Source of the DNA: Syntrophorhabdaceae bacterium | Lineage (GTDB): Bacteria > Desulfobacterota > Syntrophorhabdia > Syntrophorhabdales > Syntrophorhabdaceae | Reading direction: 5' to 3' | DNA: 58,130 bases | NCBI GenBank assembly: GCA_028713955.1 | Contig: JAQTNJ010000001.1 | Coordinates: forward strand, 3,269 to 61,398 | Shown: positions 19,161-39,511 of the stretch, one piece after another | Layout: every line of letters starts with the position of its first letter | Position numbering within the stretch: the stretch's first letter is position 1 | The notes under the pieces: model-generated | What the model saw: the letters and a program-made list of their open reading frames with translations, nothing else | What the model was told of the DNA's origin: nothing | The model's database searches: none | Position numbers and translations under genes: made by a program

Positions 19161-19180
19161 CTATGTATTCTACTGGTCAT

Positions 19181-22140: not shown

Positions 22141-22679
22141 TCCCCTTCTTTGTTGATGAGACCCATTATGACTACATCGTGCCATTGTCCGCCTTTCATA
22201 ACAAATTGATGCAGCACACCCTCTCTTGTAAAACCTGATCGTCTGTAAAAAGAGAGCGCTGTTCTATTGTTCTTCAGAACTTCCAGTTTAAGCGTGTGGA
22301 GTCTGAGGATATTAAATGACAGATTTTTGAGACAATCGATCAGCAGTGTGCCTGGTTTGGGAATACCGCTATCGGGATTAGTATAGATTCCAAGATAAGC
22401 ATTACCATTTTTTTGATCGACCTTTTTCAGATTGATGACACCGACATATATATCTTTTTTTTTCACAACCCAGCAAAACATATCGCTGCGTGTTGCCAGG
22501 TATTTAATATAGGCGGCGTGCTCTTTCTTAGATATCCTGTGGTCCTGGTACATCCATTTGGATATAGCCGCGCTGTTTCTCCACCGCCGCACCATCTCTT
22601 TCTCTTCTCCATTGAGGTTAAGGAAGCTGATAAGCCGCACATCTCCGATATTGAAGTTTTTACTGAGATCCTTTATCAT
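22137..22679 (-). CDS. pseH: GNAT N-acetyltransferase of the pseudaminic acid pathway
   Basis: 180-aa GNAT with LISFLNL..EEKEMVRRWRN..ISKWMY...H..YI. It sits between pseG and pseI. Confidence 0.7.
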   Translation of the reverse strand: MIKDLSKNFNIGDVRLISFLNLNGEEKEMVRRWRNSAAISKWMYQDHRISKKEHAAYIKYLATRSDMFCWVVKKKDIYVGVINLKKVDQKNGNAYLGIYTNPDSGIPKPGTLLIDCLKNLSFNILRLHTLKLEVLKNNRTALSFYRRSGFTREGVLHQFVMKGGQWHDVVIMGLINKEGE

Positions 22680-23749: not shown

Positions 23750-23754
23750 TTATT

Positions 23755-24624: not shown

Positions 24625-26144
24625 TGCCCCTTATGCGTCTCCATCTTCGACAGCGGGTATGAGCCGCTTTTTTCCATGTTTTGTCTGCGCTTATAAAAAT
24701 TCAATAAAAATCTTTTATAGAGATCTTTATCAAAAGAAAATCTGTAAAACATAAACCTATTCCTTGCCTTCGCCAGTAATGTAAAAACGTTGTTTTTTAG
24801 TCTATCAATTGCCCGGTCAATCTGGTGGTTTCCAAGCCGTACCGATGATTCCATGTTTAAAAAAAAGGCAGCACTTTCGGAGTATTTTCCGTTTACCTGC
24901 CAGGGCCGTATATACTCTGCAGAAGTATACATGTCGATAGTTTCTTTATTCGTCCATTCAAGGAAGTCTTTAGGCTCCCGGAGATATCCTTCTTCCAGGA
25001 GTTTTTTTGTCAATTCGCATTTTGGATAAGGTCTGAAAGTCCCGGCGCCGCATGTAAAATATGGATATCTCCTTAGCCTGTTAATAAAGACAATCGTCTT
25101 TTTTATATCGTCTATATTTTCACCTGGTATCTCAATAATAAAAGATGAGCGGGCAATAATTTTGTACTCGTTACACTTTTGAACGGCATGTTCCGCCTGT
25201 TCGGGCGTTATGCCTTTTTTCATAATCCTTAGTGTATGAAGTGATCCGGACTCAATGCCAAGGGTAAGTTGGACAAGCCCGGAACGCTTGCACAGTAAGA
25301 GCGTCTCGTTGTTCAGCATCCTGTCATTGAAATAGTCACAACGGCATTCACCATCCCACGTGATATTAAGCTTTCTCGCGATAATTCCCTCGCATATCTC
25401 CCTTACCCTTTTTATATCCACGAAAAAATTATCATCAATTATTTTTAGGTGTGTTAAGTTATATTTTCTGATAAGGAAATCTATTTCCGAAATAACCTTT
25501 TCAGCGCTCTTTTTCCTGTAACGCGTGTTACCCGTCACGGTATTAATACAAAACGTGCATTGCGAGGGACATCCTCTACTGCTTTCATACGGCAGCCAGC
25601 GCATAGGCTGCCGGACATACTCAGACAGCTTATCGGTCAGATAGCTCGATATGAACCTCTCGATGTTGTCATCTATGTCATAATCGGGCAATGGGAGTGA
25701 TTCGAGATCAAGGATTTCCTTTTGGAAAACTTTCTTACCCCCCGGATTCCTTTCTTGGACCATCCCGGCAATATTGACAATGTGCTTTTCACCCTCACCC
25801 GCCACTACATAATCAACATATTCTGACTCTGCCATCTGTTCAGGGAATAAGGTGCAATGCCAGCCACCAACTACAACGGGTATATTTGATTTTTCCTTTA
25901 TAAATTTAACTAAATTATAAGCATCAGATACCTCTGATGTAACTATTGAAATACCGGCAAACAAAGAACTCTTCAATTCGATGCCAATAGTTTTTAAAGG
26001 TTCCGGTTCGAAAGCACAATTTACTATTCTGACTTTATAGCCGGCCTTTTCAAGCTGTGTACCCAATGAAATAAGATTAAGGGGCGGATAATTATTATAG
26101 CCGTAAATATTCTGGGGTCTGATTAATAAAACCTTATCTGTCAT
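24621..26144 (-). CDS. B12-binding-domain radical SAM enzyme
   Basis: N-terminal Rossmann-like B12 domain (VLLIRPQNIY...VVVGGWH). SRGCPSQCTFC = CxxxCxxC. Confidence 0.8.
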   Translation of the reverse strand: MTDKVLLIRPQNIYGYNNYPPLNLISLGTQLEKAGYKVRIVNCAFEPEPLKTIGIELKSSLFAGISIVTSEVSDAYNLVKFIKEKSNIPVVVGGWHCTLFPEQMAESEYVDYVVAGEGEKHIVNIAGMVQERNPGGKKVFQKEILDLESLPLPDYDIDDNIERFISSYLTDKLSEYVRQPMRWLPYESSRGCPSQCTFCINTVTGNTRYRKKSAEKVISEIDFLIRKYNLTHLKIIDDNFFVDIKRVREICEGIIARKLNITWDGECRCDYFNDRMLNNETLLLCKRSGLVQLTLGIESGSLHTLRIMKKGITPEQAEHAVQKCNEYKIIARSSFIIEIPGENIDDIKKTIVFINRLRRYPYFTCGAGTFRPYPKCELTKKLLEEGYLREPKDFLEWTNKETIDMYTSAEYIRPWQVNGKYSESAAFFLNMESSVRLGNHQIDRAIDRLKNNVFTLLAKARNRFMFYRFSFDKDLYKRFLLNFYKRRQNMEKSGSYPLSKMETHKGQ

Positions 26145-26211
26145 TTATTATCTTTATACAAAACTTGACAACTTCATCATTTATTATAGTCTATAGGGGC
26201 ATTGTATTATG

Positions 26212-27201
26212 TTAAGAATCTTTCACTAATCCCCTCAATTCTTCTACCGTTAACCACCTATCGTTCGTGTTGCTGGCATAAACAAAACCTTCTTTGACGG
26301 GTTTCCCTCCGTTCGATATGTGGGTCTTTGCCGTCCACCAGTGGAATTCCGGCTCAACGATAAAATAATCGTCAAATTCAAGCGCGTGTCTTGCATCATC
26401 CTCAGTCACAAGTACCTCATGAATCTTTTCGCCTGGTCGTATACCAATGATCTCATATTTGCAATCAGGGGCAATAGCTTTTACAAGATCTGTGATATTC
26501 ATACTTGGTATCTTCGGGACAAACAATTCTCCTCCTTCTGTGATCTCGAGGCATCTTATTACAAACCTGACACCTTGTTCCAGGCTTATCCAGAAACGCG
26601 TCATCCTTGTGTCAGTTATGGGTATTATTCCAGCCTCTCTCATCTTCATAAAATATGGCACTACGCTTCCCCGGCTTCCGATGACGTTTCCATATCGCAC
26701 AACGGCAAACCGCGTCTTTCTCCAACCTGAATAAGAGTTGCCTGAAATAAAAAGTTTATCGGAACAAAGTTTTGTTGCGCCGTAAAGATTGACTGGATTC
26801 GACGCTTTATCTGTACTAAGGGCTATTACCTTTTCTATGCCGCAATCTATGGCCGCGTTTATGATATTCTCAGCGCCTATAATGTTCGTTTGAACGGCTT
26901 CGAAAGGATTTCTTTCCGCAGCCGGTACCTGTTTTAGGGCAGCAGCATGGATAACATAATTTACTCCATAAAAAGCCCTGTACAACCTGTCCTTGTCCCT
27001 CACGTCACCGATAAAATATCTGAGACAACGGTAGTCTTTTTCAGAAAACATCTGCGCCATTTCGAATTGCTTCAGTTCGTCACGGCTGAAAACGATTAAT
27101 TTTTCAGGATGGTGTTCTTTCAGAATGGTCTCAATAAATTTTTTCCCGAAAGACCCTGTCCCGCCGGTCACCAGTATTGTTTTTCCATCAAATATTGACA
27201 T
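26212..27201 (-). CDS. pseB: UDP-N-acetylglucosamine 4,6-dehydratase (inverting)
   Basis: KTILVTGGTGSFGKKF, FSRDELKQ, YGATKLCSDKLF. Confidence 0.9.
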   Translation of the reverse strand: MSIFDGKTILVTGGTGSFGKKFIETILKEHHPEKLIVFSRDELKQFEMAQMFSEKDYRCLRYFIGDVRDKDRLYRAFYGVNYVIHAAALKQVPAAERNPFEAVQTNIIGAENIINAAIDCGIEKVIALSTDKASNPVNLYGATKLCSDKLFISGNSYSGWRKTRFAVVRYGNVIGSRGSVVPYFMKMREAGIIPITDTRMTRFWISLEQGVRFVIRCLEITEGGELFVPKIPSMNITDLVKAIAPDCKYEIIGIRPGEKIHEVLVTEDDARHALEFDDYFIVEPEFHWWTAKTHISNGGKPVKEGFVYASNTNDRWLTVEELRGLVKDS

Positions 27202-27212
27202 GTGTTCCCCTT

Positions 27213-28370
27213 CTAAAATCCTTTTTTCAGTCTATTCGCCACGATCTGCCAAAAGGGTAGATCCTGGCTATTCTCTGTTTTGATATAAGCATTACGGTAG
27301 TTATCATAATGCTCTTTACTTATATTTAGCTCAAATTCCCAATCAATATCTTGAGTCTCATCTATAAAAATCGGCGATTTTCCAAACCACTTAGCTATCT
27401 CTTGAATATGATACTCTATAGGCTTTTTTCTAAAATCAGAACAAGACATGGAAATAACAGGCTTTTGAAAAAGATTCGCAAAATTTAAGGCAGTACTATA
27501 ATGTCCTAAAACCAATTTGCTTTCGTGAACAAGTCCGGCTGTTTGTCCTTTAAAGCGTTTACGGCCCCTGAAATAATCCGGGGTATCTTCATAATTGGCT
27601 TCAGGACATTCCGCTATAACTACCTCATACCCGGTCTTTCTCTCGACGGATTCAAAGAAGCGGTCAAGGTAGGTAAAATATTTTCCCACCTCAATCGGTG
27701 GATCTAACTTAAACATGGCATATTCATGGTGCAAAGGCAGGAATTCATCTATAAACACTGCAATATCACGCCCCGGACAAGGTCTGCTTTTTTCCTTTAA
27801 ATAGATGTCGTAGTCTAAAGTATGAATCCACAACACCTCTGTATCCTTACTAATGGGATAATGGTATTGCATGCATTTGCTCCCACCGGCAAAAATAAAA
27901 CTGACCGGTTTAATACCAAGAAATCGGAAAGGTATTTTCATATATATATGCTTCAGTAACGTTGTTGATTTCATACTAAATAAGTTCTTCAACACTTCTC
28001 TTTTTTTCTGGAGATAAATCTCTCTGGCAACAGGGATAGCATTGGCACAAAAAACCGCATAGGAAGCAGATGATTTACTTAATGCCGAGTAGACCCATAA
28101 GTTCCAAAAATAATAACTTACGAAATTCACGACAAAATCGCTGCTCGTTAGATTAGACAGTCTTTCATATGCCTGCTGTCTATCATTGAAAATACTCAAG
28201 CCACGACAATCGGGCATGCTATAAACTCTTGAATAATTAGCATATAAGGTAGGGGTCATATCCCATATTTCAACATCAAAACCATTTTCCCGTAGGGTCT
28301 CTATTCCAAACCGCTGATAGTCACGTTGGCTAAAATAGCCCTCTAAAAGGAAAATTATTCTTTCAATCAT
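27213..28370 (-). CDS. uncharacterised protein, possible transferase
   Basis: No named motif. The C-terminal ESKLVLGHYSTALNFANLFQKPVISMS resembles the C-termini of the 606-aa and 641-aa proteins. Confidence 0.3.
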   Translation of the reverse strand: MIERIIFLLEGYFSQRDYQRFGIETLRENGFDVEIWDMTPTLYANYSRVYSMPDCRGLSIFNDRQQAYERLSNLTSSDFVVNFVSYYFWNLWVYSALSKSSASYAVFCANAIPVAREIYLQKKREVLKNLFSMKSTTLLKHIYMKIPFRFLGIKPVSFIFAGGSKCMQYHYPISKDTEVLWIHTLDYDIYLKEKSRPCPGRDIAVFIDEFLPLHHEYAMFKLDPPIEVGKYFTYLDRFFESVERKTGYEVVIAECPEANYEDTPDYFRGRKRFKGQTAGLVHESKLVLGHYSTALNFANLFQKPVISMSCSDFRKKPIEYHIQEIAKWFGKSPIFIDETQDIDWEFELNISKEHYDNYRNAYIKTENSQDLPFWQIVANRLKKGF

Positions 28371-29710
28371 AAGGTGTGCTCTATCCGGACAAGTCTTTTG
28401 GTTTTCCCTTCAGTCCTTGGTAACGCGCCTGCCGGAACGAGTTCTATCTGGGAGTTAACCTCAAATCTTTCCTTAATTCTTTTTGCTATGGCAAGATTCA
28501 GCCTTCCCCTTTCGTTCTCTGATAATCCGTCGCGGTACTCTATTGCTACAGTGATCTTATCAACGGGCTGCTTATTTTCAACAATAATTTGATACTCACC
28601 GGTCATTGCATCAAGAAACTCTGAAACGACCCCGCCGATAGCAACCGGGTATATGTTAAGACCTTTTACTACAATCATATCATCGCTTCGCCCCAAGACC
28701 TTGAACCTGAAACTCGACCTTCCGCAATCGCATCTGTTATGATCCAGTATCTCAACCATGTCATGGGTCCTGAACCTAATGACAGGCTGCGCTTCACGCT
28801 GAAGATTAGTCAAGACAAATTCACCTGTCACACCTTTTTCTATAGGGAATACTTCTCCGGAATCAGGGTCTATCAACTCAATATAAAGGTTGCCCTGTCC
28901 CATAAAATGCAACCCTTTCTGTTCACTGCACTCTCCACCGAACATGCTTAGAACGTCTGAAACACCATAATTGGCATCCATTGCCTTGATTCCCCATGTA
29001 TCTTCTATCTTTTTTCTTATCTGTCTATCCTGTAGCCCTCCTTCACCACCGAACAAACCTTTTGTCAAGCTCAGGTTGGCAGGCTCCATATTGAAATCAT
29101 TTTCCAACAGAAGTTCCAGTTTTTTCAGATATGACACTGTGCAGCTAAGGGCAGTTGGTTTTACTTCAATGATTGATTCTATCAGGTTTTTAGAATTGCC
29201 CACACCGTAAGGTATTACAGAGGCGCCTGTCTTTTCAAGACTCTGGTGATCCGTATAACCGCCGATCCACATGCAGTAATTCAAACAATGGAAAACAACA
29301 TCATCGGGTCTAAGTCCCGATGCCCAGAAACAGCGTGCTCCTGACCGAATTGTTGCCTCTATATCATTGCCGGTCATCGCGATAAAAACCGGCCGCCCTG
29401 TCGTTCCTGAAGTTCGATGAATTCTGATCACCTTTTTTCTGTCAACAGACAGGTTGCTTCCCAATGGGGGAAATTCTATCTGATCATCGATAATCTCTTT
29501 CTTTTCGGTAAATGGCAATAATTTAAAATGATTAAATGCTTCTTTGGCGCTTTTAAACGTCTGCAGTTTTTTCTTATAAAAAGGACTTTTTTTGAAAACA
29601 TATTCCAATTGTTTAAGCAAGAGAGGTCTTTCAACCTCTTCGGAGAGTCTTTTCAATGAAAGTTTTTCAAGGCGAGAATCGAATATCTCAGGATACATAT
29701 CGGGATCCAC
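28367..29710 (-). CDS. adenylate-forming ligase of the PaaK/CapK/F390-synthetase family
   Basis: IHRTSGTTGRPVFIAMT (AMP-binding core motif); 447 aa; PaaK-like layout. Confidence 0.75.
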   Translation of the reverse strand: MDPDMYPEIFDSRLEKLSLKRLSEEVERPLLLKQLEYVFKKSPFYKKKLQTFKSAKEAFNHFKLLPFTEKKEIIDDQIEFPPLGSNLSVDRKKVIRIHRTSGTTGRPVFIAMTGNDIEATIRSGARCFWASGLRPDDVVFHCLNYCMWIGGYTDHQSLEKTGASVIPYGVGNSKNLIESIIEVKPTALSCTVSYLKKLELLLENDFNMEPANLSLTKGLFGGEGGLQDRQIRKKIEDTWGIKAMDANYGVSDVLSMFGGECSEQKGLHFMGQGNLYIELIDPDSGEVFPIEKGVTGEFVLTNLQREAQPVIRFRTHDMVEILDHNRCDCGRSSFRFKVLGRSDDMIVVKGLNIYPVAIGGVVSEFLDAMTGEYQIIVENKQPVDKITVAIEYRDGLSENERGRLNLAIAKRIKERFEVNSQIELVPAGALPRTEGKTKRLVRIEHTL

Positions 29711-29725
29711 TTAATGTCAGCGTTG

Positions 29726-30826
29726 TCACGAATCGCTTCCGTCAAGGTACCACATCAGCAGGTAACCGTTTTCGTCGACTTCGGCCGTTTTGGGCAATTG
29801 CCAAGAAGGATTCCAGTTGATTCTTTCCTGATACAGATAATCGGATTGAAGCAAAATCCTGTTATGGCTGTCCCTTTTTAATATCGTACCTTCATACAGA
29901 GTGATCTTTCCTATGTCAGTCATCGCGGCATACATTGGTTTGGCCCTTCCTGAAATAACACCACTGTTCGTCAGTTTTTTTGCCAGTTCCAAACCTTTTG
30001 CCAAGGAGGTTCTGAGGTGATGCATGCCTTTCATCGGCAAACAGTGGAAAAGATAATGTGCCTCAATGCCGAATGCCCTCATTTTGTCATAGAGTTCTAC
30101 CAAGGTAGCAATATCATCATTCACACCCTTGAGGAGCACGTTCTGTGAATAAATGGCAATTCCCATTTCTTTAAAAACTTTCAACCTTTCTATTGTTTCA
30201 GGAAAAAATTCAACAGGATGGTTTATCTGAGTTGCGATTTCAAAACGAATATCAAGCTTCTTCTTGAATATTTCAATAACATTATTGCCAATCCTCGCCG
30301 GGTCCTGGGTTAAGAGCCGCGTCGCTATTCTTGCTATCTTTATGTTTGGTGCGTACCTGGCGATGGATTCAATAAAAAAACCTAACCTCTGCGGGATGAT
30401 GAATGGATCTCCCCCAGTGATAAGAACCTCCCGTACTTCATCTCTTAACTCTTTTGATCCGCAGTATTGCGCTATTTTTGTCAATTCGGATTCACTGAGA
30501 GTGAACGTATCATATCCCGCGCGAAGGCAATACCGGCAACGTGCAGCGCATATCATGGTCGGCTCAATTACCATGTTCCTTCGATATAAGCGCTCTACGC
30601 CTCTCAGCTTATGACCCCCCAGTTCGACATCCAGGTCAGCTTCCCAGTGCTTGACGTTTTCTTCTTTCGTTGGAATATTTTCGAGACCAAGTTTTTTGTA
30701 CTGCAGATAAATTCCCTTATAGTCGCCGGAATTCTCCCCTTTTTCCTTTCTTATAGCTTCCATTTTGTTTTTCAGGAAGGGAGGAATCTTTTCAGGAAAC
30801 ATTTCGTTTTGTTTATTTTTTATCAT
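29726..30826 (-). CDS. KamA-family radical SAM aminomutase (lysine 2,3-aminomutase-like)
   Basis: PTMICAARCRYCLR (CxxxCxxC) and EVLITGGDP. 366 aa, so EpmB-size rather than AblA-size. Confidence 0.75.
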   Translation of the reverse strand: MIKNKQNEMFPEKIPPFLKNKMEAIRKEKGENSGDYKGIYLQYKKLGLENIPTKEENVKHWEADLDVELGGHKLRGVERLYRRNMVIEPTMICAARCRYCLRAGYDTFTLSESELTKIAQYCGSKELRDEVREVLITGGDPFIIPQRLGFFIESIARYAPNIKIARIATRLLTQDPARIGNNVIEIFKKKLDIRFEIATQINHPVEFFPETIERLKVFKEMGIAIYSQNVLLKGVNDDIATLVELYDKMRAFGIEAHYLFHCLPMKGMHHLRTSLAKGLELAKKLTNSGVISGRAKPMYAAMTDIGKITLYEGTILKRDSHNRILLQSDYLYQERINWNPSWQLPKTAEVDENGYLLMWYLDGSDS

Positions 30827-31748
30827 GTGACTGTTGTTCCTCCTTTCTCTTCCTTAACAAACGTGCTGGATTGCCCGCATAAACACCGTTGTCCTTCAGG
30901 TCTCTGATAACCACCGCCCCTATCCCGATGGTTACATTGTTTCCTATCAGCACAGAATCCCTTATACTGGCGTTCGGCGCGATAAGACAATGCCTGCCGA
31001 TTACAACCTGCCTGCTGATGATGGCTCCGGCAGTAATCATCGTACCTTTTTTCACTACACAGTTAGACCCAATCTGCACGAGGTCGTCAATCTTTACATT
31101 GTCTTCAATAACCGTATCATCGATAGCCGAGCTTTCTATACATGTGTTGGCTCCTATCCAGACATTATCACCTATTGATATTTTCCCGACATGGGGGAAA
31201 TGTATCAGCTTTCCGTCTTCATCAAGTTCAAAGTCATAACCTGTACTGCCTATTGTTGAATTGTGTTTAATAAAACAATTATTGCCTATCCTGACGCGCC
31301 CCGTTATGACTACATTATTCATGATTCTTGAGTTGTTTCCTATGATCACTTCAGGCCCTATTACCGTGTTCTCTCCTATTGAAACACCGTATCCAATCCT
31401 GGCATTTGCATCGATCTTTGCAGATGGCGATATTACAACGGAGTCATATTCTACGAAAAATTCATTCAAGACATTAATGAACTTGACCCTCGGATTATCA
31501 ACGATAATATATGATAGTCCATCATGTTTTGAACTCAGCTTTTTCGCTGTCAAAATAAGAACATCTTTATGTCTTTTAATCTTTTTTTCCGGGATGGTAT
31601 CGTTTTCGCTTAAATATAAAAAGGCTTTATTACCGAAGTTATTTACCGATGAGGGATATTTAACGACAAAATCTTTCCCGATAAGTTTTAAGCCTAGAAA
31701 CTCGGCTATCTCGGAGGCAAAAATATCGAGATACTTTATTTTATACAT
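30813..31748 (-). CDS. LpxD-like left-handed beta-helix N-acyltransferase
   Basis: Hexapeptide repeats throughout. GSTGYDFELDEDGKLIHFPHVGKISIGDNVWIGANTCI matches the LpxD active-site region pattern. Confidence 0.7.
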   Translation of the reverse strand: MYKIKYLDIFASEIAEFLGLKLIGKDFVVKYPSSVNNFGNKAFLYLSENDTIPEKKIKRHKDVLILTAKKLSSKHDGLSYIIVDNPRVKFINVLNEFFVEYDSVVISPSAKIDANARIGYGVSIGENTVIGPEVIIGNNSRIMNNVVITGRVRIGNNCFIKHNSTIGSTGYDFELDEDGKLIHFPHVGKISIGDNVWIGANTCIESSAIDDTVIEDNVKIDDLVQIGSNCVVKKGTMITAGAIISRQVVIGRHCLIAPNASIRDSVLIGNNVTIGIGAVVIRDLKDNGVYAGNPARLLRKRKEEQQSHDKK

Positions 31749-31805
31749 ATTCCTGCTCCTTTCTTTTCTTGAAGCTTATAATGCGCATCGGTGATTTATA
31801 GGATA

Positions 31806-32942
31806 TTACAGGCTAACAGTTCTATAGTCCTCGTTGATAGACTGATCCTGATCGCTGTCGCCTTTTGTTGCGTAAAATTCTTCAAAAGATACTCTTTTGA
31901 ATTCACCGTTACAGTCCAACACCATGTTGATGCTCTTTCTTTCCCTGACTTCAATCGGCTGGAAGAGCATCGGTACGGCATATTCCCGATGTTCGGATAA
32001 TCCGATAAATGGCGATCTGCATACTTCATCGCAATATTTTTTTGATACACAAAAAAAATCGGCAAGTATCAGACCATGGTCACGGCCAAAGCTTAACACA
32101 GCCCTCGTTAGATCTTCTTCATAACCACGCACTGGCAGCATCTCCAGTATTCTAAGCACCCTCCCGTCAACACCCTTTATTTTTTCCAGTCTGACCACTG
32201 ATAGTCCCTTCTTTGCCTCAGGGTCTATCGTAATGATGTTATAATATATGTAAGGGTGATTTAAGTAACGCCACTTAAGAACCTCTAAATTCTTATACGA
32301 TGAAATTGCGAAGCGCTGAGTATGGTCTATCCAGTAGTCTTCTGATATGTCCGAAAAATCTTGGATAACAACATAGTCCTGCCTTATCCTGGAGCATCGC
32401 TCTGCCGATTCCCTTAAAAATTCCTTCTGTCCCTTTATTGAATCATTCCCGAACAAAAAAAGACATTTTCCTGCATCCATGACAGCAATCTTTCTCTCTA
32501 TTTCATTTATCATAGGATAGCCGAGCTTTTCATATGAATTGTAAGATAGCTGGTTCACTCCATAACCACAATAAATTTCAGTCATCCCGCGCAATCTTTT
32601 GACCAGTTCCCGCCCAAGGCCTTTAATTTTTGAGAAATTCATCCACTCGATATCCCATACAGTCTTGGCTTCCTTCCCATCAACATATGTTTTCCATGGG
32701 AGGAAGGCATCCAGCGCGAGTATATTCCTGTCTTCGTCAAGAAAGACAAGCATTGAGTATTGGTTCTTGTCGACCATCGTTGTCTTAAAGGGCGAATCGA
32801 AGTATTGCCAGCGGACATATTTATTATCTGCACCAAAATAAGATTCACTGCCGATAAAATCTCTCAATAAGCGGAGTGCCTGCGGTAAGTCAAACTCATT
32901 GATGTAATCGACGGTATATTCCCTCACAAGGACTTCCGCCAT
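31806..32942 (-). CDS. hypothetical protein with a GNAT-like motif (FemAB/CelD-like size)
   Basis: IKGLGRELVKRL resembles GNAT motif A. 378 aa is consistent with a double-GNAT fold. Weak call. Confidence 0.3.
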   Translation of the reverse strand: MAEVLVREYTVDYINEFDLPQALRLLRDFIGSESYFGADNKYVRWQYFDSPFKTTMVDKNQYSMLVFLDEDRNILALDAFLPWKTYVDGKEAKTVWDIEWMNFSKIKGLGRELVKRLRGMTEIYCGYGVNQLSYNSYEKLGYPMINEIERKIAVMDAGKCLFLFGNDSIKGQKEFLRESAERCSRIRQDYVVIQDFSDISEDYWIDHTQRFAISSYKNLEVLKWRYLNHPYIYYNIITIDPEAKKGLSVVRLEKIKGVDGRVLRILEMLPVRGYEEDLTRAVLSFGRDHGLILADFFCVSKKYCDEVCRSPFIGLSEHREYAVPMLFQPIEVRERKSINMVLDCNGEFKRVSFEEFYATKGDSDQDQSINEDYRTVSL

Positions 32943-34243
32943 ACAGTGGTATTTCCATAATCATCGTTAGTAGCCAAGCCTATAGACTCAAGCTGGTCCA
33001 GGAATATGGTATCGGCATCAAATGTGTAACTCCAGTGCATATCTCCATGATAGTCAAGGTTTTCATGGATGTAAAGATTAGTTTTTGTTTTAAAACAGAA
33101 ATAAGGTTGCGGCCCCCAGCAAGGCTTATCGGTTCTTACTGTAAATAATCTATTTGTTAAAGAAACCTTAAATGAGACAGGTTTTTCCTTTTTAAGATTC
33201 AGTGCTGCACGCATAGCCTGCAAAGCACCTGAGTTCTTAATCTTTACATCCGGGTATTTTTTGTGAACTTTCCTGACCAATTTATAACAATGGTCTATAT
33301 ATGGCCGCACCTCCCTTTCATCGTGACTGACGATAGCCATAATAGTCCGTTTATCGGAATCTGCCCTTCTAAAGGCCTTTTCTATCTCATACTCATCGAT
33401 TGCCCTCAAGCGTGAATTGAGGTTGAGACACCTTGCTATATATCTTTTCATACCCCCTTTTATCTGGTAATCATAAAAATCCGGGTGATAGACCTCCCAC
33501 TCGGATGTTGCCCTTCTCCAGTCGCCGTATCGTCCGGTGCCCACATCTTTCTGCAGTTCAGCGTAGCGTTCTTTATCTTTTTCCACCCCCTGGTTCGCAA
33601 AGTCAAAAGGAATCCACTGTTCGAGAAAGAAGTTTATATCAGGACGTTCACAATGAAAACCGGGACGGAATGCAGCAGGAAACCACCCATGGTCGATTAC
33701 GCGACGACTCAATATCTGGAGATGCTCATTGGTATAAGATAAATTATTGGAAGACTTGTGAGCTTCTCTTAAGAAAGATACTGGATGAAAATGGAAATGT
33801 GTCTCATCGTGCTTACAGTTATATTCTTTGAGTTTATCCAGATAATGTTCAAAAACGACATTGTAACCAAGTGCCCGTCTTCTTGGATTAACCTTGTATC
33901 CAACGTGGTCAAGAATAAACCAGTTAAATATACATCCGTTATCAAAATCGTCTTTGTATTGTTTTCTCCATTTTTCAGATAATATTTCATTGAGCATTCC
34001 GTCGACCATATGCCAATCTGTGTTATAGTTGAGCCTGCCATCGAAAGAGACAAAATGTTTTACCAGAGACCTTATATTTGCAGGTATGCCTTTTCCGCTT
34101 TGTAATTTACGAAGATTTTCAACTGATGGAGGAATGTTGAGCCCAAAGATCTTTTTTATCAGATCAAAGGTTGCTTCCAGCGGTTCGTACAACGGCCCTT
34201 CAGTATCAACACAATGGACAATATACAGTATTTTATCTTTCAT
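32924..34243 (-). CDS. hypothetical protein (possible metal-dependent deacetylase/hydrolase fold)
   Basis: LYIVHCVDTEGP and THFHFHP histidine cluster. I cannot name a family. Confidence 0.25.
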   Translation of the reverse strand: MKDKILYIVHCVDTEGPLYEPLEATFDLIKKIFGLNIPPSVENLRKLQSGKGIPANIRSLVKHFVSFDGRLNYNTDWHMVDGMLNEILSEKWRKQYKDDFDNGCIFNWFILDHVGYKVNPRRRALGYNVVFEHYLDKLKEYNCKHDETHFHFHPVSFLREAHKSSNNLSYTNEHLQILSRRVIDHGWFPAAFRPGFHCERPDINFFLEQWIPFDFANQGVEKDKERYAELQKDVGTGRYGDWRRATSEWEVYHPDFYDYQIKGGMKRYIARCLNLNSRLRAIDEYEIEKAFRRADSDKRTIMAIVSHDEREVRPYIDHCYKLVRKVHKKYPDVKIKNSGALQAMRAALNLKKEKPVSFKVSLTNRLFTVRTDKPCWGPQPYFCFKTKTNLYIHENLDYHGDMHWSYTFDADTIFLDQLESIGLATNDDYGNTTVWRKSL

Positions 34244-34251
34244 GACCCTCC

Positions 34252-34980
34252 TTAACCTTTCTCTTTTTTCAATAAACGTTCTCCCAAAATAGCTTCAACG
34301 GCAATAAAGTCGTATATGTCATCGATTTCGTAGCACTGCCATCTCTCTATAAAGAGAGGTATCGTCCTTTTGGGATAGAATGTGCGTTCATGAAACAATG
34401 AATGTATACTTGAAAGATAAATGACCCCATATGGGAAAAAGGCATCTTTCAATTCCTGGCGTCTCACAACATTTTCAGCATTTTCCACAAACGACACCAT
34501 ATATCCATGTTTTTCAATTTTTTTTGCGACCCATGGATGTTCGAGTGTTATCTTGCCAAGGCTCACCAAGCTGTCAGCGCTGTCACCGGCATCAACCAGT
34601 GTTTCAATCGCCCTGTCTATATCACCATCTTTTCTTAGGGGTGATGTCGGCTCGAGTAGTGCGATATAATCGAACTGCTCGCCTCTATCCTTCATAAAAT
34701 TAATCGCGTGTATAGCAACATCAACCGAATTTGCATGATCGCCGGCCAATTCATTTGGTCTTAAAAAAGGAACTTCAGCGCCGCTGTTTTTTGCGATCTC
34801 CGCGATCTCTTTATCGTCTGTGGAAACGATGATCCTGTCGAGGTAATTGCTTGCCAGCGCCTTTTCGATTGTCCATGCAATGAGGGGCTTACCCAAAAGC
34901 GGTTTGATATTTTTCCTTGGGAGCCCTTTACTCCCTCCCCTCGCTGTTATAACCGCCAGAATTCTTCTGTCTTTATACAT
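34252..34980 (-). CDS. neuA: acylneuraminate/nonulosonate cytidylyltransferase
   Basis: ILAVITARGGSKGLPRKNIKPLLGKPLI N-terminus; 242 aa. Confidence 0.85.
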   Translation of the reverse strand: MYKDRRILAVITARGGSKGLPRKNIKPLLGKPLIAWTIEKALASNYLDRIIVSTDDKEIAEIAKNSGAEVPFLRPNELAGDHANSVDVAIHAINFMKDRGEQFDYIALLEPTSPLRKDGDIDRAIETLVDAGDSADSLVSLGKITLEHPWVAKKIEKHGYMVSFVENAENVVRRQELKDAFFPYGVIYLSSIHSLFHERTFYPKRTIPLFIERWQCYEIDDIYDFIAVEAILGERLLKKEKG

Positions 34981-34990
34981 ATAACCTCAC

Positions 34991-35046
34991 ATCAACACTA
35001 TCAAAGCTATCAATCATTCTGCAATCTGAAATCTACAATCGCAAAT
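34991..35046. repeat. 7-nt-phased array (ATCAACA CTATCAA AGCTATC AATCATT CTGCAAT CTGAAAT CTACAAT CGCAAAT)
   Basis: Read directly; it fills the neuA / SDR spacer. Confidence 0.6.
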
Positions 35047-35789
35047 TAATATATCGTCCATCCCCCGTCGACGAGGAGGTTCTGGCCGGTGATATATTTG
35101 GATTTGTCGCTCATGAGAAATTTCACTGCCTCAGCAACATCGTCAGAATCAGCCATCTTCCCAAGCGGTGTCCTTGACGCGTAGGTCTTCGCGAATTCGC
35201 TCCCGCCTCTCTGCGAATCTCCGACCCCGCCAGGTGATATGGCGTTGCACCGGATACCCCATTTTCCATATTTTGCGGCTACCCATTTGCAGAAATGGAT
35301 CATCCCGGCCTTTGCAACCGCATAAACCAGTGGTGACGTGATATTCATGCCTTCGTATATCTGAAATGTGGGCGCCACAACACCTTGGATTGAGCCTATG
35401 TTGATAATGCTCCCGAACCCTTGTTTTTTCATGAACGGGATTACTGTCCTGGTGAGTAAAAAGCTTCCTACCAGGTTTACATCGAGAACCTTACGAAAGG
35501 TTTCAGTCGAATAATCATCAAGTTCGTTGGCAAACCCCGGGGGCTGGCATGACGCGTTATTGATGAGTCCATGGACCTCACACTCCATCGATGCCAAGTG
35601 GTCCCGCAATCTCTTGATGTCTTTCTCATCCGAGATGTCGCATTGGAATAGTTCACCATAGATCTTTTTATCGTCCGGGGTCTCTTTCATGTCGAGCAAA
35701 AGTATGTCATAGCCTTCCCCTTCCAGCGCCTTTGCGTAACTCTGGCCCAGGACGCCAAGACCTCCTGAAATTATAACCAGCTTTTTCAT
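35046..35789 (-). CDS. short-chain dehydrogenase/reductase
   Basis: VIISGGLGVLGQ and YAVAKAG (YxxxK). The start is moved to the ATG at 35789, which abuts the upstream stop at 35786. Confidence 0.8.
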   Translation of the reverse strand: MKKLVIISGGLGVLGQSYAKALEGEGYDILLLDMKETPDDKKIYGELFQCDISDEKDIKRLRDHLASMECEVHGLINNASCQPPGFANELDDYSTETFRKVLDVNLVGSFLLTRTVIPFMKKQGFGSIINIGSIQGVVAPTFQIYEGMNITSPLVYAVAKAGMIHFCKWVAAKYGKWGIRCNAISPGGVGDSQRGGSEFAKTYASRTPLGKMADSDDVAEAVKFLMSDKSKYITGQNLLVDGGWTIY

Positions 35790-36787
35790 GAAACAATCTC
35801 CTTCATGGCAATCCATTTCTCTTCCCGGTCAGAAACCTCGATAGCCCGAATGACCTTCATCGTGTCAACAGCATCGGCAATGTCCACCGTGCTTTTCTCC
35901 CTGCCATTTATTACATCGATAAAATGTTTCAATTCATCTGTATAGGTCGTATTAAAATCATAACCGGGTCCTACTGTAAAAATCTCTTTAGAACCGGAGC
36001 TTTCCTTATCAAAATACGATACATTTCCTTCGGCCGGATTCCACTTCCATTCAAGGGTCCCATTTTCAGCAATGATCTGTCCTCCCCTTAAATATTTATG
36101 TGAAAGATAGTCAAGATGGATCTCCACCACAGAACCATCTTTATACTTCATTAACGCGGAACAGATATCGTCCGTCGATATTTCGAGGTCACTCACTCTG
36201 TTCACATATCCGACCACCTTCTCGGGACAGCCTATCAACCAGAGCGTGTAGTCTATATCATGAGCGAGCTCCACGTGAACTCCTCCGCCAAGCTCTTTTT
36301 TAGCGCTTGTTGATTCGCGGTAATCAACACCCTTTCTCCAGTATGGGAGATAATAACCAACGTAGATCTTCGTTGCATAAATCTTTCCTACGTTCGGCAA
36401 AAAATCTTTAATAAACTGTATGATAGGATGATACCTCAGGTTAAATCCCATCTCATAGGAGGTGAACTTGTTGGATACTATGATCTCCTGCATCTCACTG
36501 GTTGACTTAAGATCATGTGTCGGTGGTTTTTCGAGTAAAAAGGGGATACCATGATGAATTAATTCCTTCACATCATCCAGATGCTTCGTTGTTGGTGAGC
36601 AGATGATAACACCATCAATACCTTTTTCGCCTTCGAGCACGTCTTCGAGTCTATAATATTCTTTCAGGCCCTCTTTGTTCTCATTACCTTTTGAATGCCT
36701 GAGGAGGACAGCCTGATGACCCATAGAAATTACATTTGCGGCGTGCCTTTTCCCTATTGAGCCATATCCTATGACGAGAAACTTCAT
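35786..36787 (-). CDS. Gfo/Idh/MocA-family oxidoreductase
   Basis: MKFLVIGYGSIGKRHA N-terminus and EKP motif (FLLEKPP). Confidence 0.8.
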   Translation of the reverse strand: MKFLVIGYGSIGKRHAANVISMGHQAVLLRHSKGNENKEGLKEYYRLEDVLEGEKGIDGVIICSPTTKHLDDVKELIHHGIPFLLEKPPTHDLKSTSEMQEIIVSNKFTSYEMGFNLRYHPIIQFIKDFLPNVGKIYATKIYVGYYLPYWRKGVDYRESTSAKKELGGGVHVELAHDIDYTLWLIGCPEKVVGYVNRVSDLEISTDDICSALMKYKDGSVVEIHLDYLSHKYLRGGQIIAENGTLEWKWNPAEGNVSYFDKESSGSKEIFTVGPGYDFNTTYTDELKHFIDVINGREKSTVDIADAVDTMKVIRAIEVSDREEKWIAMKEIVS

Positions 36788-36793
36788 GTTGTC

Positions 36794-38089: not shown

Positions 38090-38110
38090 GTTATCTCCTC
38101 TTAACTGGGT

Positions 38111-39482: not shown

Positions 39483-39511
39483 AAAAAATAGTCTACCCGG
39501 TCATATAATGA

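What the first reader, a model, noticed from the sequence alone, without database searches (positions are those of the whole stretch)
28367..34243. Aminomutase + adenylating ligase + LpxD-like acyltransferase + GNAT-like block: a candidate beta-aminoacyl decoration module for a nonulosonic acid
Between the pse genes and neuA lies a run of five genes, adjoining one another by overlaps of 14 and 19 nt or gaps of 15 and 57 nt:
- A PaaK/CapK-type adenylate-forming enzyme (TSGTTG motif).
- A KamA-family radical SAM aminomutase (CAARCRYC, ITGGDP).
- An LpxD-like N-acyltransferase.
- A 378-aa GNAT/Fem-like protein.
- A 439-aa unknown protein with a histidine cluster.

KamA enzymes make beta-amino acids: beta-lysine, beta-glutamate or beta-arginine. 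An adenylating enzyme together with N-acyltransferases is what would be needed to hang such an acid on the 5- or 7-amino group of Pse or Leg.

NulOs with unusual N-acyl groups are known, including hydroxybutyryl, alanyl, glutamyl and acetimidoyl. I know of no described beta-aminoacyl NulO and no described cassette of this composition. No carrier-protein gene is visible.
Basis: inference. Interest (0 to 1): 0.7.

Follow-up and report, generated by a model that had tools for sequence, protein, structure and literature searches.

The report
Aminomutase-ligase-acyltransferase cassette for surface sugars
A run of genes inside a large cell-surface sugar locus looks like a widespread, undescribed cassette that makes an unusual (beta) amino acid, activates it and hangs it on amino sugars such as pseudaminic or legionaminic acid; no product has been measured.

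Summary
The five ORFs exist exactly as described, on the minus strand, with the stated overlaps and gaps.

**Core of three genes.** A PaaK-type ligase, an LpxD-like hexapeptide acyltransferase (LbH) and a KamA-type radical SAM enzyme form a conserved cassette.
- Among the 80 best-matching loci from a one-genome-per-species collection, a PaaK-type gene lies next to the KamA-type gene in 41-42.
- These loci come from at least 14 phyla.
- 33 of them sit in sugar-pathway loci. Some are Pse/Leg operons; others are O-antigen-like loci without a nonulosonic acid (NulO) synthase.
- Natural fusions exist: LbH+KamA-like and ATP-grasp+KamA-like.

**The KamA-type protein** belongs to a discrete subfamily below every NCBIfam cut-off.
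- It keeps the CxxxCxxC motif, the PLP lysine and the carboxylate arginine.
- It lacks both aspartates that hold lysine's side chain, so the substrate is not lysine.
- EF-P modification and osmolyte synthesis are excluded.

**Accessory genes.**
- The 378-aa protein has a tandem-GNAT fold.
- The 439-aa protein weakly resembles polysaccharide deacetylases and sits where a PIG-L deacetylase sits in other genomes.
- Both, plus the neighbouring 385-aa unknown, travel as an accessory set and also occur without the KamA-type gene.

**Verdict.** This is an amino-sugar N-acyl remodelling cassette that is not specific to NulOs. The window's LbH lacks LpxD's catalytic histidine. Substrate and product are unknown. 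No paper describing it was found.

The parts
29726..30826 (-). KamA-type radical SAM/PLP enzyme of an undescribed subfamily (366 aa); proposed amino acid 2,3-aminomutase whose substrate is not lysine
   Evidence: PDB 2a5h at E 2.4e-26. Every NCBIfam KamA-type model scores below its cut-off (best 132 bits against 396). C93/C97/C100, R102 and K307 match C125/C129/C132, R134 and K337 of lysine 2,3-aminomutase; D293 is replaced by Leu and D330 falls in a gap. The clade is discrete: 260-440 bits, against 190 bits or less for other KamA relatives. The residue signature is invariant in 76 of 80 genomes; the few departures are noted in the full report.
28367..29710 (-). PaaK-type adenylate-forming ligase (447 aa); proposed activation of the beta-amino acid as acyl-AMP or acyl-CoA
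   Evidence: PDB 4r1l at E 7.6e-61. AMP-binding_C_2 domain and TSGTTG motif. PaaK equivalog scores 248 bits against a 646 cut-off. An orthologue lies within 3.5 kb of the KamA-type gene in 41 of 80 genomes.
30813..31748 (-). LpxD-like left-handed beta-helix acyltransferase, 'type B' (311 aa); proposed transfer of the acyl group to a nucleotide-sugar amine
   Evidence: LpxD models score 192 and 186 bits, just under their cut-offs of 207 and 242. PDB LpxD at about E 1e-30. Catalytic His239 of LpxD aligns with Ser228. Type B copies always sit next to the KamA-type gene. A natural LbH+KamA-like fusion exists, P0276.
31806..32942 (-). Tandem-GNAT-fold protein (378 aa); probable second N-acyltransferase, accessory to the core
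   Evidence: No Pfam or NCBIfam hit. AF2 model pLDDT 91.7. Foldseek matches N-myristoyltransferases at E 5e-12 with TM about 0.5, and the Eis-like GNATs 2hv2 and 4my3. Only 33 homologues were found. It travels with the KamA-type and PaaK-type genes in L004, L008, L014, L032, L052 and L059.
32924..34243 (-). 439-aa protein: distorted (beta/alpha) barrel plus C-terminal beta-sandwich; possible de-N-acetylase that exposes the acceptor amine, accessory to the core
   Evidence: No Pfam or NCBIfam hit; the family has more than 1,699 members. AF2 model pLDDT 92.1. Foldseek gives weak whole-length matches to polysaccharide deacetylase 3s6o, allantoinase PuuE 3cl6 and chitin deacetylase 5zns (E 3e-3 to 2e-2, TM about 0.35-0.48). 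H151/H153, D112/H113 and H307/D308 are invariant. It occupies the slot that a PIG-L deacetylase has next to the cassette in at least 8 other genomes. It also occurs without a KamA-type gene.
27213..28370 (-). 385-aa unknown protein overlapping the ligase gene by 4 nt; co-travels with the 378-aa and 439-aa genes; possible further member, function unknown
   Evidence: No Pfam, NCBIfam or PDB-profile hit. Homologues lie next to the cassette in L004, L008, L032 and L052.

Best explanation
The block is an N-acyl remodelling module for a nucleotide-activated amino sugar. In this window the sugar is probably a pseudaminic or legionaminic acid precursor.

Proposed steps (all inferred; nothing was assayed):
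1. The KamA-type radical SAM/PLP enzyme converts a free L-alpha-amino acid, not lysine, into its beta-isomer.
2. The PaaK-type ligase adenylates the beta-amino acid and probably makes its CoA thioester. That would explain why no carrier protein is needed.
3. The LpxD-like hexapeptide acyltransferase puts the acyl group on a free amine of a nucleotide sugar.
4. That amine is exposed beforehand by a de-N-acetylase: the 439-aa protein here, a PIG-L enzyme in many other genomes.
5. The tandem-GNAT 378-aa protein adds a second acyl group, for example capping the new beta-amino group, or acts as an alternative transferase.

What is shown: gene order, family and fold assignments, the active-site residue pattern, conserved synteny across phyla, and natural fusions. 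The chemistry, the amino acid, the acceptor position and the order of steps are inferred.
For: **Conserved unit**
- PaaK+LbH+KamA-type genes lie side by side in unrelated phyla.
- Among the 80 best loci from a one-genome-per-species collection, 41 have the PaaK-type gene within 3.5 kb of the KamA-type gene and 30 have both PaaK and LbH.
- 33 of 42 PaaK-linked loci carry at least 2 sugar-pathway families within 10 kb.

**Placement inside NulO operons**
- Leg operons: L001/L009, L027, L029, L063, L066, L070, L072, L073.
- Pse operons: L008, L025, L028, L036.

**Fusions**
- P0276 is an LpxD-like LbH fused to a KamA-like domain: 41% identity to the window's LbH, E 2e-74.
- P0279 and P0281 are ATP-grasp ligases fused to a KamA-like domain.
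- Where the PaaK-type gene is absent, another carboxylate-activating enzyme is often next door: ATP-grasp ligases in Streptomyces netropsis, and an ANL enzyme of about 570 aa in five loci (two of them scanned against Pfam).

**Aminomutase hallmarks**
- CxxxCxxC, GGDP, the PLP lysine and the alpha-carboxylate arginine are kept.

**Deacetylase logic**
- A PIG-L gene directly abuts the cassette in L003, L016, L017, L020, L030, L038, L065 and L080.
- The 439-aa protein has a deacetylase-like barrel.
- In Cohnella it sits in a Pse locus with a formyltransferase. L001 pairs PIG-L with a formyltransferase in the same way.

**Co-transcription**
- Tight spacing and no intergenic terminator-like sites suggest one transcript.
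Against: - No biochemical or glycan-structure data exist for any member.
- The window's LbH has Ser at the position of LpxD's catalytic His. Its competence as a transferase is therefore assumed. Type B copies are, however, the only LbH in many cassettes.
- PseH- or LegH-type acetyltransferases are retained in the same operons (L025; PglD in the Leg-type loci). The acceptor amine is therefore unclear.
- The deacetylase assignment of the 439-aa protein rests on weak fold matches.
- About 20 genomes (Dongia-type, Rhodospirillaceae and others) carry the KamA-type gene with no recognisable partner.
- A class III aminotransferase, an Fe-alcohol dehydrogenase and short-chain dehydrogenase (SDR) genes lie nearby and could process the acyl group further.
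Confidence: 0.55

Rival explanations
1. The beta-amino acid (or its CoA ester) is only an intermediate. Neighbouring enzymes convert it into a 3-oxo-, 3-hydroxy- or otherwise modified acyl group, and that group, not a beta-aminoacyl group, ends up on the sugar. Candidate enzymes are the class III aminotransferase, the Fe-alcohol dehydrogenase, the short-chain dehydrogenase (SDR) and the B12-radical SAM methylases.
For: The block Fe-ADH / class III aminotransferase / Gfo-Idh / SDR (35046-39286) and two B12-binding radical SAM genes are conserved with the cassette in the close relatives L004, L005 and L008. Fe-ADH lies directly next to the 385-aa gene and the PaaK-KamA pair in L032. A class III aminotransferase abuts the KamA-type gene in a Pelagibacteraceae genome, L043. 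From general knowledge, class III aminotransferases acting on beta-aminoacyl-CoA are known from lysine fermentation.
Against: These extra genes are absent from most cassette loci in other phyla, so they are not needed for the core function. The SDR, Gfo/Idh and CMP-transferase genes look like PtmA/PtmF/PtmB-type legionaminic acid genes.
Confidence: 0.15
2. The five genes are two separate functions that merely adjoin. The PaaK/LbH/KamA triad is one unit. The 439-aa, 378-aa and 385-aa proteins modify the NulO in an unrelated way.
For: The 439-aa family is large (more than 1,699 members) and occurs without a KamA-type gene in Cohnella, Pseudodesulfovibrio mercurii and an Eremiobacterota MAG. Most triad loci lack the 378-aa and 439-aa genes (6 and 5 of 80).
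Against: Where the 378-aa and 439-aa genes occur among the KamA-centred loci, they lie directly beside the KamA-type and PaaK-type genes, in Omnitrophota, Desulfovibrionales, Arcobacteraceae and Acidobacteriota. L032 and L059 lack LbH, which suggests the 378-aa protein can stand in for it. The loci without a KamA-type gene still carry another AMP-binding ligase. That fits a shared 'deacetylate, activate an acid, re-acylate' logic.
Confidence: 0.2
3. The KamA-type gene serves a process unrelated to glycans: EF-P beta-lysylation (EpmB), N-epsilon-acetyl-beta-lysine osmolyte synthesis (AblA/AblB), or lysine fermentation.
For: It belongs to the same superfamily, and automatic annotations call homologues 'lysine 2,3-aminomutase'.
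Against: EpmB scores 108 bits against a 369 cut-off and AblA 116 against 525. Both lysine epsilon-ammonium-binding aspartates are missing. No efp, epmA, ablB or kamDE-type gene is among the window's annotated ORFs. Synteny is with sugar genes in 50 of 80 genomes.
Confidence: 0.02
4. The cassette makes a small secreted or cytoplasmic peptide-like metabolite rather than a glycan substituent.
For: In actinomycetes the subfamily sits beside ATP-grasp L-amino-acid ligases and an MFS exporter, with no sugar genes (L085). ATP-grasp+KamA-like fusions exist.
Against: In the window and in 33 of 42 PaaK-linked genomes the cassette is inside sugar-pathway operons, often between consecutive NulO pathway genes. 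Its partner is an LpxD-like enzyme with a nucleotide-sugar-type N-terminal region.
Confidence: 0.05

Closest known systems
Lysine 2,3-aminomutase (KamA, PDB 2a5h) and the KamA family (EpmB, AblA, glutamate and arginine 2,3-aminomutases)
   Same: Radical SAM CxxxCxxC motif, GGDP motif, PLP-binding lysine (K337 = K307) and alpha-carboxylate arginine (R134 = R102) are kept. About 30% identity over residues 74-341.
   Different: It scores below every NCBIfam KamA-type cut-off, including the general family model (122.5 against 199.2). D293 is replaced by Leu/Val/Ile and D330 is deleted. The Zn ligand C268 is replaced by Asp. It has its own conserved N-terminal region of about 70 residues and forms a discrete clade. 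Its genomic partners are sugar genes, not efp/epmA or ablB.
Phenylacetate-CoA ligase PaaK (PDB 4r1l, 2y4o) and PaaK/CapK-like ligases
   Same: Same short ANL architecture with an AMP-binding_C_2 domain and the TSGTTG motif; E 7.6e-61 to 4r1l.
   Different: 248 bits against the 646-bit PaaK equivalog cut-off. It sits in glycan loci coupled to an aminomutase. Its substrate is presumably an amino acid rather than an aryl acetate.
LpxD (UDP-3-O-acylglucosamine N-acyltransferase)
   Same: Left-handed beta-helix with an LpxD-like N-terminal region. It scores just below the LpxD cut-offs (192 against 207). LpxD is an N-acyltransferase acting on a nucleotide amino sugar.
   Different: Catalytic His239 is Ser in the window's protein. 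The protein is about 30 residues shorter than E. coli LpxD at the C-terminus. No ACP gene is nearby. It is not in a lipid A operon.
Beta-amino acids amide-linked to amino sugars in antibiotics (streptothricin beta-lysine on gulosamine; blasticidin S beta-arginine made by BlsG). From my own knowledge, not tested here.
   Same: The same chemical logic: a KamA-family aminomutase makes a beta-amino acid, which is activated and amide-linked to a sugar amine.
   Different: Those are secondary-metabolite clusters using NRPS-like or ATP-grasp enzymes and lysine or arginine. This is a primary cell-surface glycan locus with a PaaK+LbH pair and a non-basic substrate.
Known N-acyl tailoring of Pse/Leg and other amino sugars (acetimidoyl, formyl, 3-hydroxybutyryl, alanyl, N-methyl-glutamyl groups; PIG-L plus formyltransferase swaps). 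From my own knowledge.
   Same: Tailoring genes embedded in NulO or O-antigen operons; a deacetylase followed by re-acylation fits L001 and L089.
   Different: None of the paper searches returned a described tailoring system with a radical SAM aminomutase.

Membership tests
KamA family (radical SAM/PLP amino acid 2,3-aminomutases) | CxxxCxxC [4Fe-4S]/SAM motif | tested here: met
   C93/C97/C100 align with C125/C129/C132 of 2a5h and are invariant in A1.
KamA family (radical SAM/PLP amino acid 2,3-aminomutases) | PLP-binding lysine (K337 of lysine 2,3-aminomutase) and alpha-carboxylate arginine (R134) | tested here: met
   K307 and R102 align with them and are invariant in 17 and in 80 sequences.
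KamA family (radical SAM/PLP amino acid 2,3-aminomutases) | Score above the curated family cut-off (TIGR00238, 199.2 bits) | tested here: not met
   122.5 bits. It is an outlying clade of the superfamily.
Lysine 2,3-aminomutase / EpmB / AblA (lysine-specific members) | Asp293 and Asp330 binding the lysine epsilon-ammonium group; equivalog score | tested here: not met
   D293 is replaced by L263 (V/I/L across the family) and D330 falls in a gap. AblA scores 116 against 525 and EpmB 108 against 369.
EpmB (EF-P modification) | Genomic link to efp and epmA | tested here: not met
   No EF-P or EpmA-type domain in any scanned ORF of the window. Neighbours in 80 genomes are ligases, acyltransferases and sugar genes.
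Glutamate / arginine 2,3-aminomutase | Equivalog score (cut-offs 650 and 600 bits) | tested here: not met
   125 and 126 bits.
KamA family (radical SAM/PLP amino acid 2,3-aminomutases) | Aminomutase activity | not testable with these tools
   Needs anaerobic enzyme assays.
PaaK (phenylacetate-CoA ligase) | ANL fold with short C-terminal domain and the P-loop-like TSGTTG motif | tested here: met
   PF14535 at 66.6 bits; 4r1l at E 7.6e-61; motif in sequence.
PaaK (phenylacetate-CoA ligase) | Equivalog score (TIGR02155, 646 bits), meaning the same substrate | tested here: not met
   247.8 bits.
LpxD | Left-handed beta-helix plus N-terminal nucleotide-binding region; score above cut-off | tested here: inconclusive
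   Hexapep at 112 bits. TIGR01853 aligns residues 13-302 with model positions 1-309 but scores 185.5 against a 242.5 cut-off; NF002060 scores 191.6 against 207.
LpxD | Catalytic His239 (E. coli numbering) | tested here: not met
   It aligns with Ser228. 43% of cassette LbH proteins ('type A') keep His; the KamA-adjacent 'type B' copies do not.
GNAT superfamily, tandem-GNAT architecture (N-myristoyltransferase, Eis or Fem-like) | Two GNAT folds in one chain | tested here: met
   AF2 pLDDT 91.7. Foldseek matches N-myristoyltransferase structures at E 5e-12 with TM about 0.5, plus 2hv2 and 4my3. A sequence profile gives only a marginal GNAT hit (E 0.11).
Carbohydrate esterase 4 / polysaccharide deacetylase-like barrel (439-aa protein) | Deformed (beta/alpha) barrel with an Asp/His metal site | tested here: inconclusive
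   Foldseek matches 3s6o, 3cl6 and 5zns at E 3e-3 to 2e-2 with TM 0.35-0.48. Acidic and His residues are invariant or nearly invariant (D13, E15, H151, H153, H307, D308), but the motifs were not mapped in three dimensions. No sequence-level hit.

The most novel reading that the evidence does not exclude
A previously unrecognised subfamily of radical SAM/PLP 2,3-aminomutases, with a non-lysine and still unknown substrate, supplies a beta-amino acid. A dedicated PaaK-type ligase and an LpxD-like transferase then install it as an N-acyl group on nucleotide-activated amino sugars, including Pse and Leg precursors. That would define a new class of beta-aminoacylated cell-surface glycans. The KamA-type gene is spread over at least 14 bacterial phyla and also lies among NulO genes in marine SAR11 and ammonia-oxidising archaea. 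The archaeal loci have no PaaK-type gene; only one of the two SAR11 loci has the full triad.
Probability: 0.4. Interest if true: 0.8.

Novelty: new variant of a known kind. Interest (0 to 1): 0.66.

Why it matters
N-acyl groups on nonulosonic acids and other amino sugars decide how phages, antibodies and lectins see a cell surface. The enzymes for most unusual acyl groups are unknown.

This cassette is common in environmental bacteria. The KamA-type gene also sits among NulO genes in abundant marine SAR11 bacteria and in Nitrosopumilus-type archaea, though without the full triad in most of those loci.

If it installs a beta-amino acid, three things follow:
- A new chemical class of glycan decoration.
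- A new substrate specificity in the KamA radical SAM family.
- A ready-made enzyme set (aminomutase, ligase, transferase) for glyco-engineering.

It also gives a concrete, testable function to more than a thousand 'lysine 2,3-aminomutase' and 'hypothetical protein' annotations.

Tried and rejected
1. **EF-P modification or osmolyte synthesis.** Rejected on model scores, missing lysine-binding residues and gene context.
2. **The LbH replaces PseH.** Rejected as a general rule. L025 keeps a PseH-like GNAT between PseG and the PaaK-type gene, and Leg-type loci keep PglD.
3. **A hidden carrier protein.** None in the block. The 83-aa ORF at 39449-39700 is basic, low-complexity and not ACP-like.
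4. **Sequence-profile searches of the PDB** for the 439-aa, 378-aa and 385-aa proteins gave nothing significant. Only fold comparison was informative.
5. **'Orphan' KamA-type loci** of Dongia-type Alphaproteobacteria. Neighbours are uninformative: HhH-GPD, an alpha/beta hydrolase and unknowns.
6. **A flagellin glycosylation island.** Rejected for this window. There are no flagellar or Maf genes. It has Bac_transf, PMT_2, GT2, GT4, a WbpM-like dehydratase and an ABC exporter. Some related loci do carry Maf.
7. **Promoter and terminator scan.** No more sites than chance and none informative.
8. **Literature searches** combining aminomutase with pseudaminic, legionaminic, flagellin and O-antigen found only unrelated papers. 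The one candidate concerned a glutamate-1-semialdehyde aminomutase-like gene.
9. **Substrate of the KamA-type enzyme.** It could not be deduced.

Full report
**Observation**

- 28367-29710: 447 aa, GTG start.
- 29726-30826: 366 aa.
- 30813-31748: 311 aa.
- 31806-32942: 378 aa.
- 32924-34243: 439 aa.

They are joined by a 15-nt gap, a 14-nt overlap, a 57-nt gap and a 19-nt overlap. The quoted motifs are in the translations: TSGTTG, ICAARCRYC, ITGGDP and HFHFHP. Every gene in the window runs in the same direction. The block shows no more terminator-like sites than chance and none in an intergenic gap, so it is probably part of one long transcript. That is an inference.

**Setting**

The window matches a 67-kb MAG contig, GCA_028711085.1 JAQTSX010000001.1. 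Nearly all of it is a surface-glycan locus.

Downstream of the block lie, in order:
- a 385-aa unknown (27213-28370);
- PseB (523 bits against a 408 cut-off);
- a B12-binding radical SAM protein;
- a cytidylyltransferase;
- PseG, PseH and PseI;
- a 641-aa unknown;
- a methyltransferase;
- an ABC exporter.

Upstream lie, in order:
- a CMP-NulO synthetase (34252-34980);
- a PtmA-like short-chain dehydrogenase (SDR);
- a Gfo/Idh oxidoreductase;
- a class III aminotransferase;
- an Fe-alcohol dehydrogenase;
- a second B12-radical SAM protein;
- a methyltransferase;
- a PtmE-like nucleotidyltransferase;
- NeuC, NeuB, a PglD-like acetyltransferase, a LegC-type aminotransferase and a dehydratase.

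That upstream run amounts to a legionaminic-acid-type pathway. The window ends carry a Bac_transf initiating transferase, a PMT_2 protein, GT2 and GT4 transferases and a WbpM-like dehydratase. There are no flagellar or Maf genes. This is a general surface-glycan locus, not a flagellin island. GC content drops to about 0.38-0.42 across 18-35 kb, against about 0.48-0.50 in the flanks.

**The KamA-type protein**

It matches lysine 2,3-aminomutase 2a5h at E 2.4e-26. It scores below every curated model:

| Model | Bits | Cut-off |
|---|---|---|
| AblA_like_2 | 132 | 396 |
| Arginine 2,3-aminomutase | 126 | 600 |
| Glutamate 2,3-aminomutase | 125 | 650 |
| General KamA family | 122.5 | 199.2 |
| AblA | 116 | 525 |
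| EpmB | 108 | 369 |

Mapping the alignment onto lysine 2,3-aminomutase numbering gives:
- C125/C129/C132 = C93/C97/C100;
- R134 (alpha-carboxylate) = R102;
- K337 (PLP) = K307;
- D293 is replaced by Leu;
- D330 falls in a two-residue deletion;
- the Zn ligand C268 is replaced by Asp.

From established knowledge of lysine 2,3-aminomutase, D293 and D330 hold the epsilon-ammonium group of lysine. The protein therefore keeps what is needed to bind PLP, SAM and the carboxylate of a free alpha-amino acid, but it cannot bind lysine in the way that enzyme does.

A word-indexed search found 974 relatives. The best 120 are all about 365 aa long and at least 55% identical. An exhaustive search of 1.84 billion cluster representatives shows a discrete clade. 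About 17 full-length representatives score 260-440 bits and align over residues 7-365. Other KamA relatives score 190 bits or less, and only residues 73-365 align. The N-terminal 70 or so residues are a conserved hallmark of the clade.

Across 80 species-level genomes the signature R102, H257, H261, [V/I/L]263, P264, [M/L/I]265, R294, K296, [T/S]303, D304, K307 is invariant in all but a few sequences. Four actinomycete sequences have Met or Leu for R294, two of them also Ala for D304. One sequence has Cys at 263, and three others differ at 304. I read this as one substrate for nearly the whole clade. Its identity is not deducible here.

**Conserved neighbourhood**

I fetched the 80 best loci from a one-genome-per-species collection. 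I then searched their ORFs with the window's proteins.
- A PaaK-type ligase lies within 3.5 kb of the KamA-type gene in 41 loci (42 by a looser count).
- 30 loci have both the ligase and the LpxD-like LbH.
- The carriers span at least 14 phyla, including Omnitrophota, Desulfobacterota, Bacteroidota, Planctomycetota, Firmicutes and Pseudomonadota (a Pelagibacteraceae genome and Vibrio among them).
- 33 of the 42 ligase-linked loci have at least 2 sugar-pathway families within 10 kb.
- A NulO synthase lies within 10 kb in 26 of 80 loci, and in 16 of the 41 ligase-linked ones.

The triad is often wedged between consecutive pathway genes:
- PaaK-LbH-KamA-PglD-NeuB-NeuC in Leg-type operons: L001/L009, L027, L029, L063, L066, L070, L072, L073.
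- PseB-PseC-...-PseG-PaaK-LbH-KamA-PseI in Pse-type operons: L025, L036.

It is also found in loci with no NulO synthase:
- A Calditrichales O-antigen-like locus with UDP-sugar dehydrogenase, WbpB/E/D-like genes, Wzy and a flippase (L002).
- A locus reading 2-epimerase, PIG-L, LbH, PaaK, LbH, KamA, GT4 (L003).
- The cultured Vibrio sp. HN007, which reads UDP-GlcNAc 2-epimerase, PIG-L, PaaK, LbH, KamA, GT4, Bac_transf, PglD, DegT (L080).

So the cassette is linked to amino-sugar biosynthesis in general. NulOs are one frequent target.

**Fusions and alternative partners**

Among the cluster representatives:
- P0276 (651 aa) is an LpxD-like LbH fused to the KamA-like domain. It is 41% identical to the window's LbH over 290 residues, E 2e-74.
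- P0279 (772 aa) and P0281 (786 aa) are ATP-grasp ligases fused to the KamA-like domain.

Where the PaaK-type gene is missing, another carboxylate-activating enzyme often stands next to the KamA-type gene:
- Two ATP-grasp ligases plus an MFS exporter in Streptomyces netropsis.
- An ANL enzyme of about 570 aa in L037, L053, L056, L062 and L087. The five group together by sequence; L053 and L056 were confirmed against Pfam.

These are independent lines of evidence. They indicate that the KamA-type product is a carboxylic acid that is activated and then passed to an acyltransferase.

**The acyltransferase**

The 311-aa protein scores just under the LpxD cut-offs (191.6 against 207; 185.5 against 242.5). 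The alignment includes the N-terminal region. The catalytic His239 of E. coli LpxD aligns with Ser228.

Aligning 37 cassette LbH proteins reveals two types:
- Type A keeps 'QIGHN'. It is the first copy in two-LbH loci, the single copy in others, and the fused copy in P0276.
- Type B has Gly, Ser, Ala, Asn, Gln or Tyr at that position. It is the copy directly next to the KamA-type gene in two-LbH loci, and it is the single copy in the window and many others.

A different histidine, H183 in 'HFPH', is 86% conserved. Membership in LpxD proper therefore fails. Acyltransferase function of type B is assumed, not shown.

**The two unknowns**

*378-aa protein.* It has only 33 detectable homologues. 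Its AlphaFold model is confident (pLDDT 91.7). Foldseek matches N-myristoyltransferases (E 5e-12, TM about 0.5) and Eis-like double GNATs.

*439-aa protein.* Its family has more than 1,699 members and no Pfam model. The model is confident (pLDDT 92.1). Its only whole-length fold matches are weak: polysaccharide deacetylase 3s6o, allantoinase PuuE 3cl6 and chitin deacetylase 5zns, plus a C-terminal beta-sandwich (E 3e-3 to 2e-2, TM 0.35-0.48). H151/H153, D112/H113 and H307/D308 are invariant.

*Context for a deacetylase role.*
- A PIG-L de-N-acetylase directly abuts the cassette in L003, L016, L017, L020, L030, L038, L065 and L080.
- In Cohnella xylanilytica the 439-aa homologue sits in a Pse locus with a formyltransferase. 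In L001 a PIG-L gene sits with a formyltransferase in the same way.
- I therefore propose that the 439-aa protein removes an N-acetyl group so that a new acyl group can be installed. This is the weakest link in the model.

*Accessory status.*
- The 378-aa and 439-aa genes flank the KamA-type and PaaK-type genes in L004, L008, L014, L032, L052 and L059.
- The 385-aa protein at 27213-28370 joins them in L004, L008, L032 and L052.
- All three are absent from most cassette loci.
- The 439-aa family also occurs without a KamA-type gene.
- They are an accessory set, not part of the invariant core.
- L032 and L059 have the 378-aa gene but no LbH. The tandem GNAT may be able to stand in as the transferase.

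**Mechanism proposed**

An L-alpha-amino acid, not lysine, is converted to its beta-isomer by the KamA-type enzyme. The PaaK-type ligase adenylates it and probably thioesterifies it to CoA. That would fit the absence of any carrier-protein gene. The LbH, the tandem GNAT or both transfer it to a sugar amine freed by the deacetylase-like protein. A second acyltransferase may cap the beta-amino group.

The repeated pairing with a 2-epimerase and PIG-L hints that the 2-N position is the target. That position becomes N5 of a NulO. PseH- and LegH-type N4 acetyltransferases are retained in the same operons, which fits this. The point remains speculative. Whether Pse or Leg is the acceptor in this window cannot be decided.

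**Rivals**

- EF-P modification, osmolyte synthesis and lysine fermentation are excluded by scores, residues and context.
- Further processing of the acyl group stays possible in this lineage. The candidates are the nearby class III aminotransferase, Fe-ADH, SDR and B12-radical SAM genes. Those genes are absent from most cassette loci.
- A role outside glycans fits the actinomycete loci but not the window.

**Novelty**

Searches of about 8.3 million full texts combined aminomutase with pseudaminic, legionaminic, flagellin glycosylation and O-antigen. They found nothing relevant. The one candidate concerned a glutamate-1-semialdehyde aminomutase-like gene. Subscription-only literature was not searchable.

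The logic of tailoring a sugar's N-acyl group is known. From my own knowledge, beta-amino acids amide-linked to amino sugars are known in antibiotics such as streptothricin and blasticidin S. I found no description of a radical SAM aminomutase cassette in primary surface-glycan loci, or of this KamA subfamily. I rate it a new variant of a known kind, with good prospects for experiment because a cultured Vibrio carries it.

Noticed in passing
window 27213-28370 (-): A 385-aa protein with no Pfam, NCBIfam or PDB-profile hit overlaps the ligase gene by 4 nt. It travels with the 378-aa and 439-aa genes in L004, L008, L032 and L052. The alignment shows a conserved 'VF(L/I)D(E/D)' stretch and an 'HPR' motif, reminiscent of the D/E-D/E-G and HP motifs of bacterial sialyltransferases (from memory, untested). 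It may be the NulO transferase.
   Followed up: partly
window 24621-26144 (-) and 39744-41732 (-): Two B12-binding radical SAM proteins (one KedN5-like C-methyltransferase type) sit inside the Pse and Leg gene runs. Both are conserved with the locus in L004, L005 and L008. They suggest C-methylation of the NulO or of its acyl group.
   Followed up: no
window 11270-16349 (-): A third ulosonic-acid-like module: a KdsB-type cytidylyltransferase (228 bits, above one subfamily cut-off), an HpcH/HpaI aldolase, a HAD phosphatase, an LdpA-like Fe-S protein and a 572-aa HMGL-like aldolase/synthase. A 606-aa protein with no family (9442-11262) lies next to it.
   Followed up: no
window 26144-26212 and 8219-9331 (-): The Pse gene run lacks a PseC aminotransferase between PseB and the B12-radical SAM gene, although the relatives L004 and L005 have one there. 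The only PseC-like gene is 17 kb away (8219-9331) and scores 330 bits, below the 423-bit PseC cut-off.
   Followed up: partly
window 35046-39286 (-); L032, L043: The block SDR / Gfo-Idh / class III aminotransferase (glutamate-1-semialdehyde aminomutase-like) / Fe-alcohol dehydrogenase is conserved upstream of the cassette in close relatives. Fe-ADH directly adjoins the 385-aa gene and the PaaK-KamA pair in L032. A long class III aminotransferase ORF abuts the KamA-type gene in a Pelagibacteraceae genome (L043).
   Followed up: partly
window 18000-35000: GC content falls to 0.38-0.42, against 0.48-0.50 in the flanks. This may reflect horizontal acquisition or a hypervariable glycan island.
   Followed up: no
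L026, L031 (Nitrosopelagicus, Nitrosopumilus); L043, L068 (Pelagibacteraceae): The KamA-type gene sits among NulO genes in ammonia-oxidising archaea and SAR11. The archaeal loci have an LbH on the opposite strand about 2 kb downstream of the KamA-type gene and no PaaK-type gene.
   Followed up: no
P0276, P0279, P0281 (cluster representatives): Natural fusion proteins: LpxD-like LbH + KamA-like (651 aa) and ATP-grasp + KamA-like (772 and 786 aa). Their genomic contexts could not be fetched with the tools allowed.
   Followed up: partly
window 19181-21106 (-): A 641-aa protein with no family lies directly after PseI. It has a homologue in the Desulfovibrionales locus L032 (179 bits). It is a candidate glycosyltransferase or Maf analogue.
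   Followed up: no
L006 8050-9021 versus window 31806-32942: The public gene call for the 378-aa protein on the source contig is truncated to 323 aa. Homologues (366-378 aa) and the 19-nt overlap support the longer ORF.
   Followed up: yes
window 48516-48896 (-): A 126-aa ORF lies between the Leg gene run and a GT4 gene. By eye it looks like a winged-helix (MarR/EPS-regulator-like) protein and may be the locus regulator. It was not scanned against any family library.
   Followed up: no
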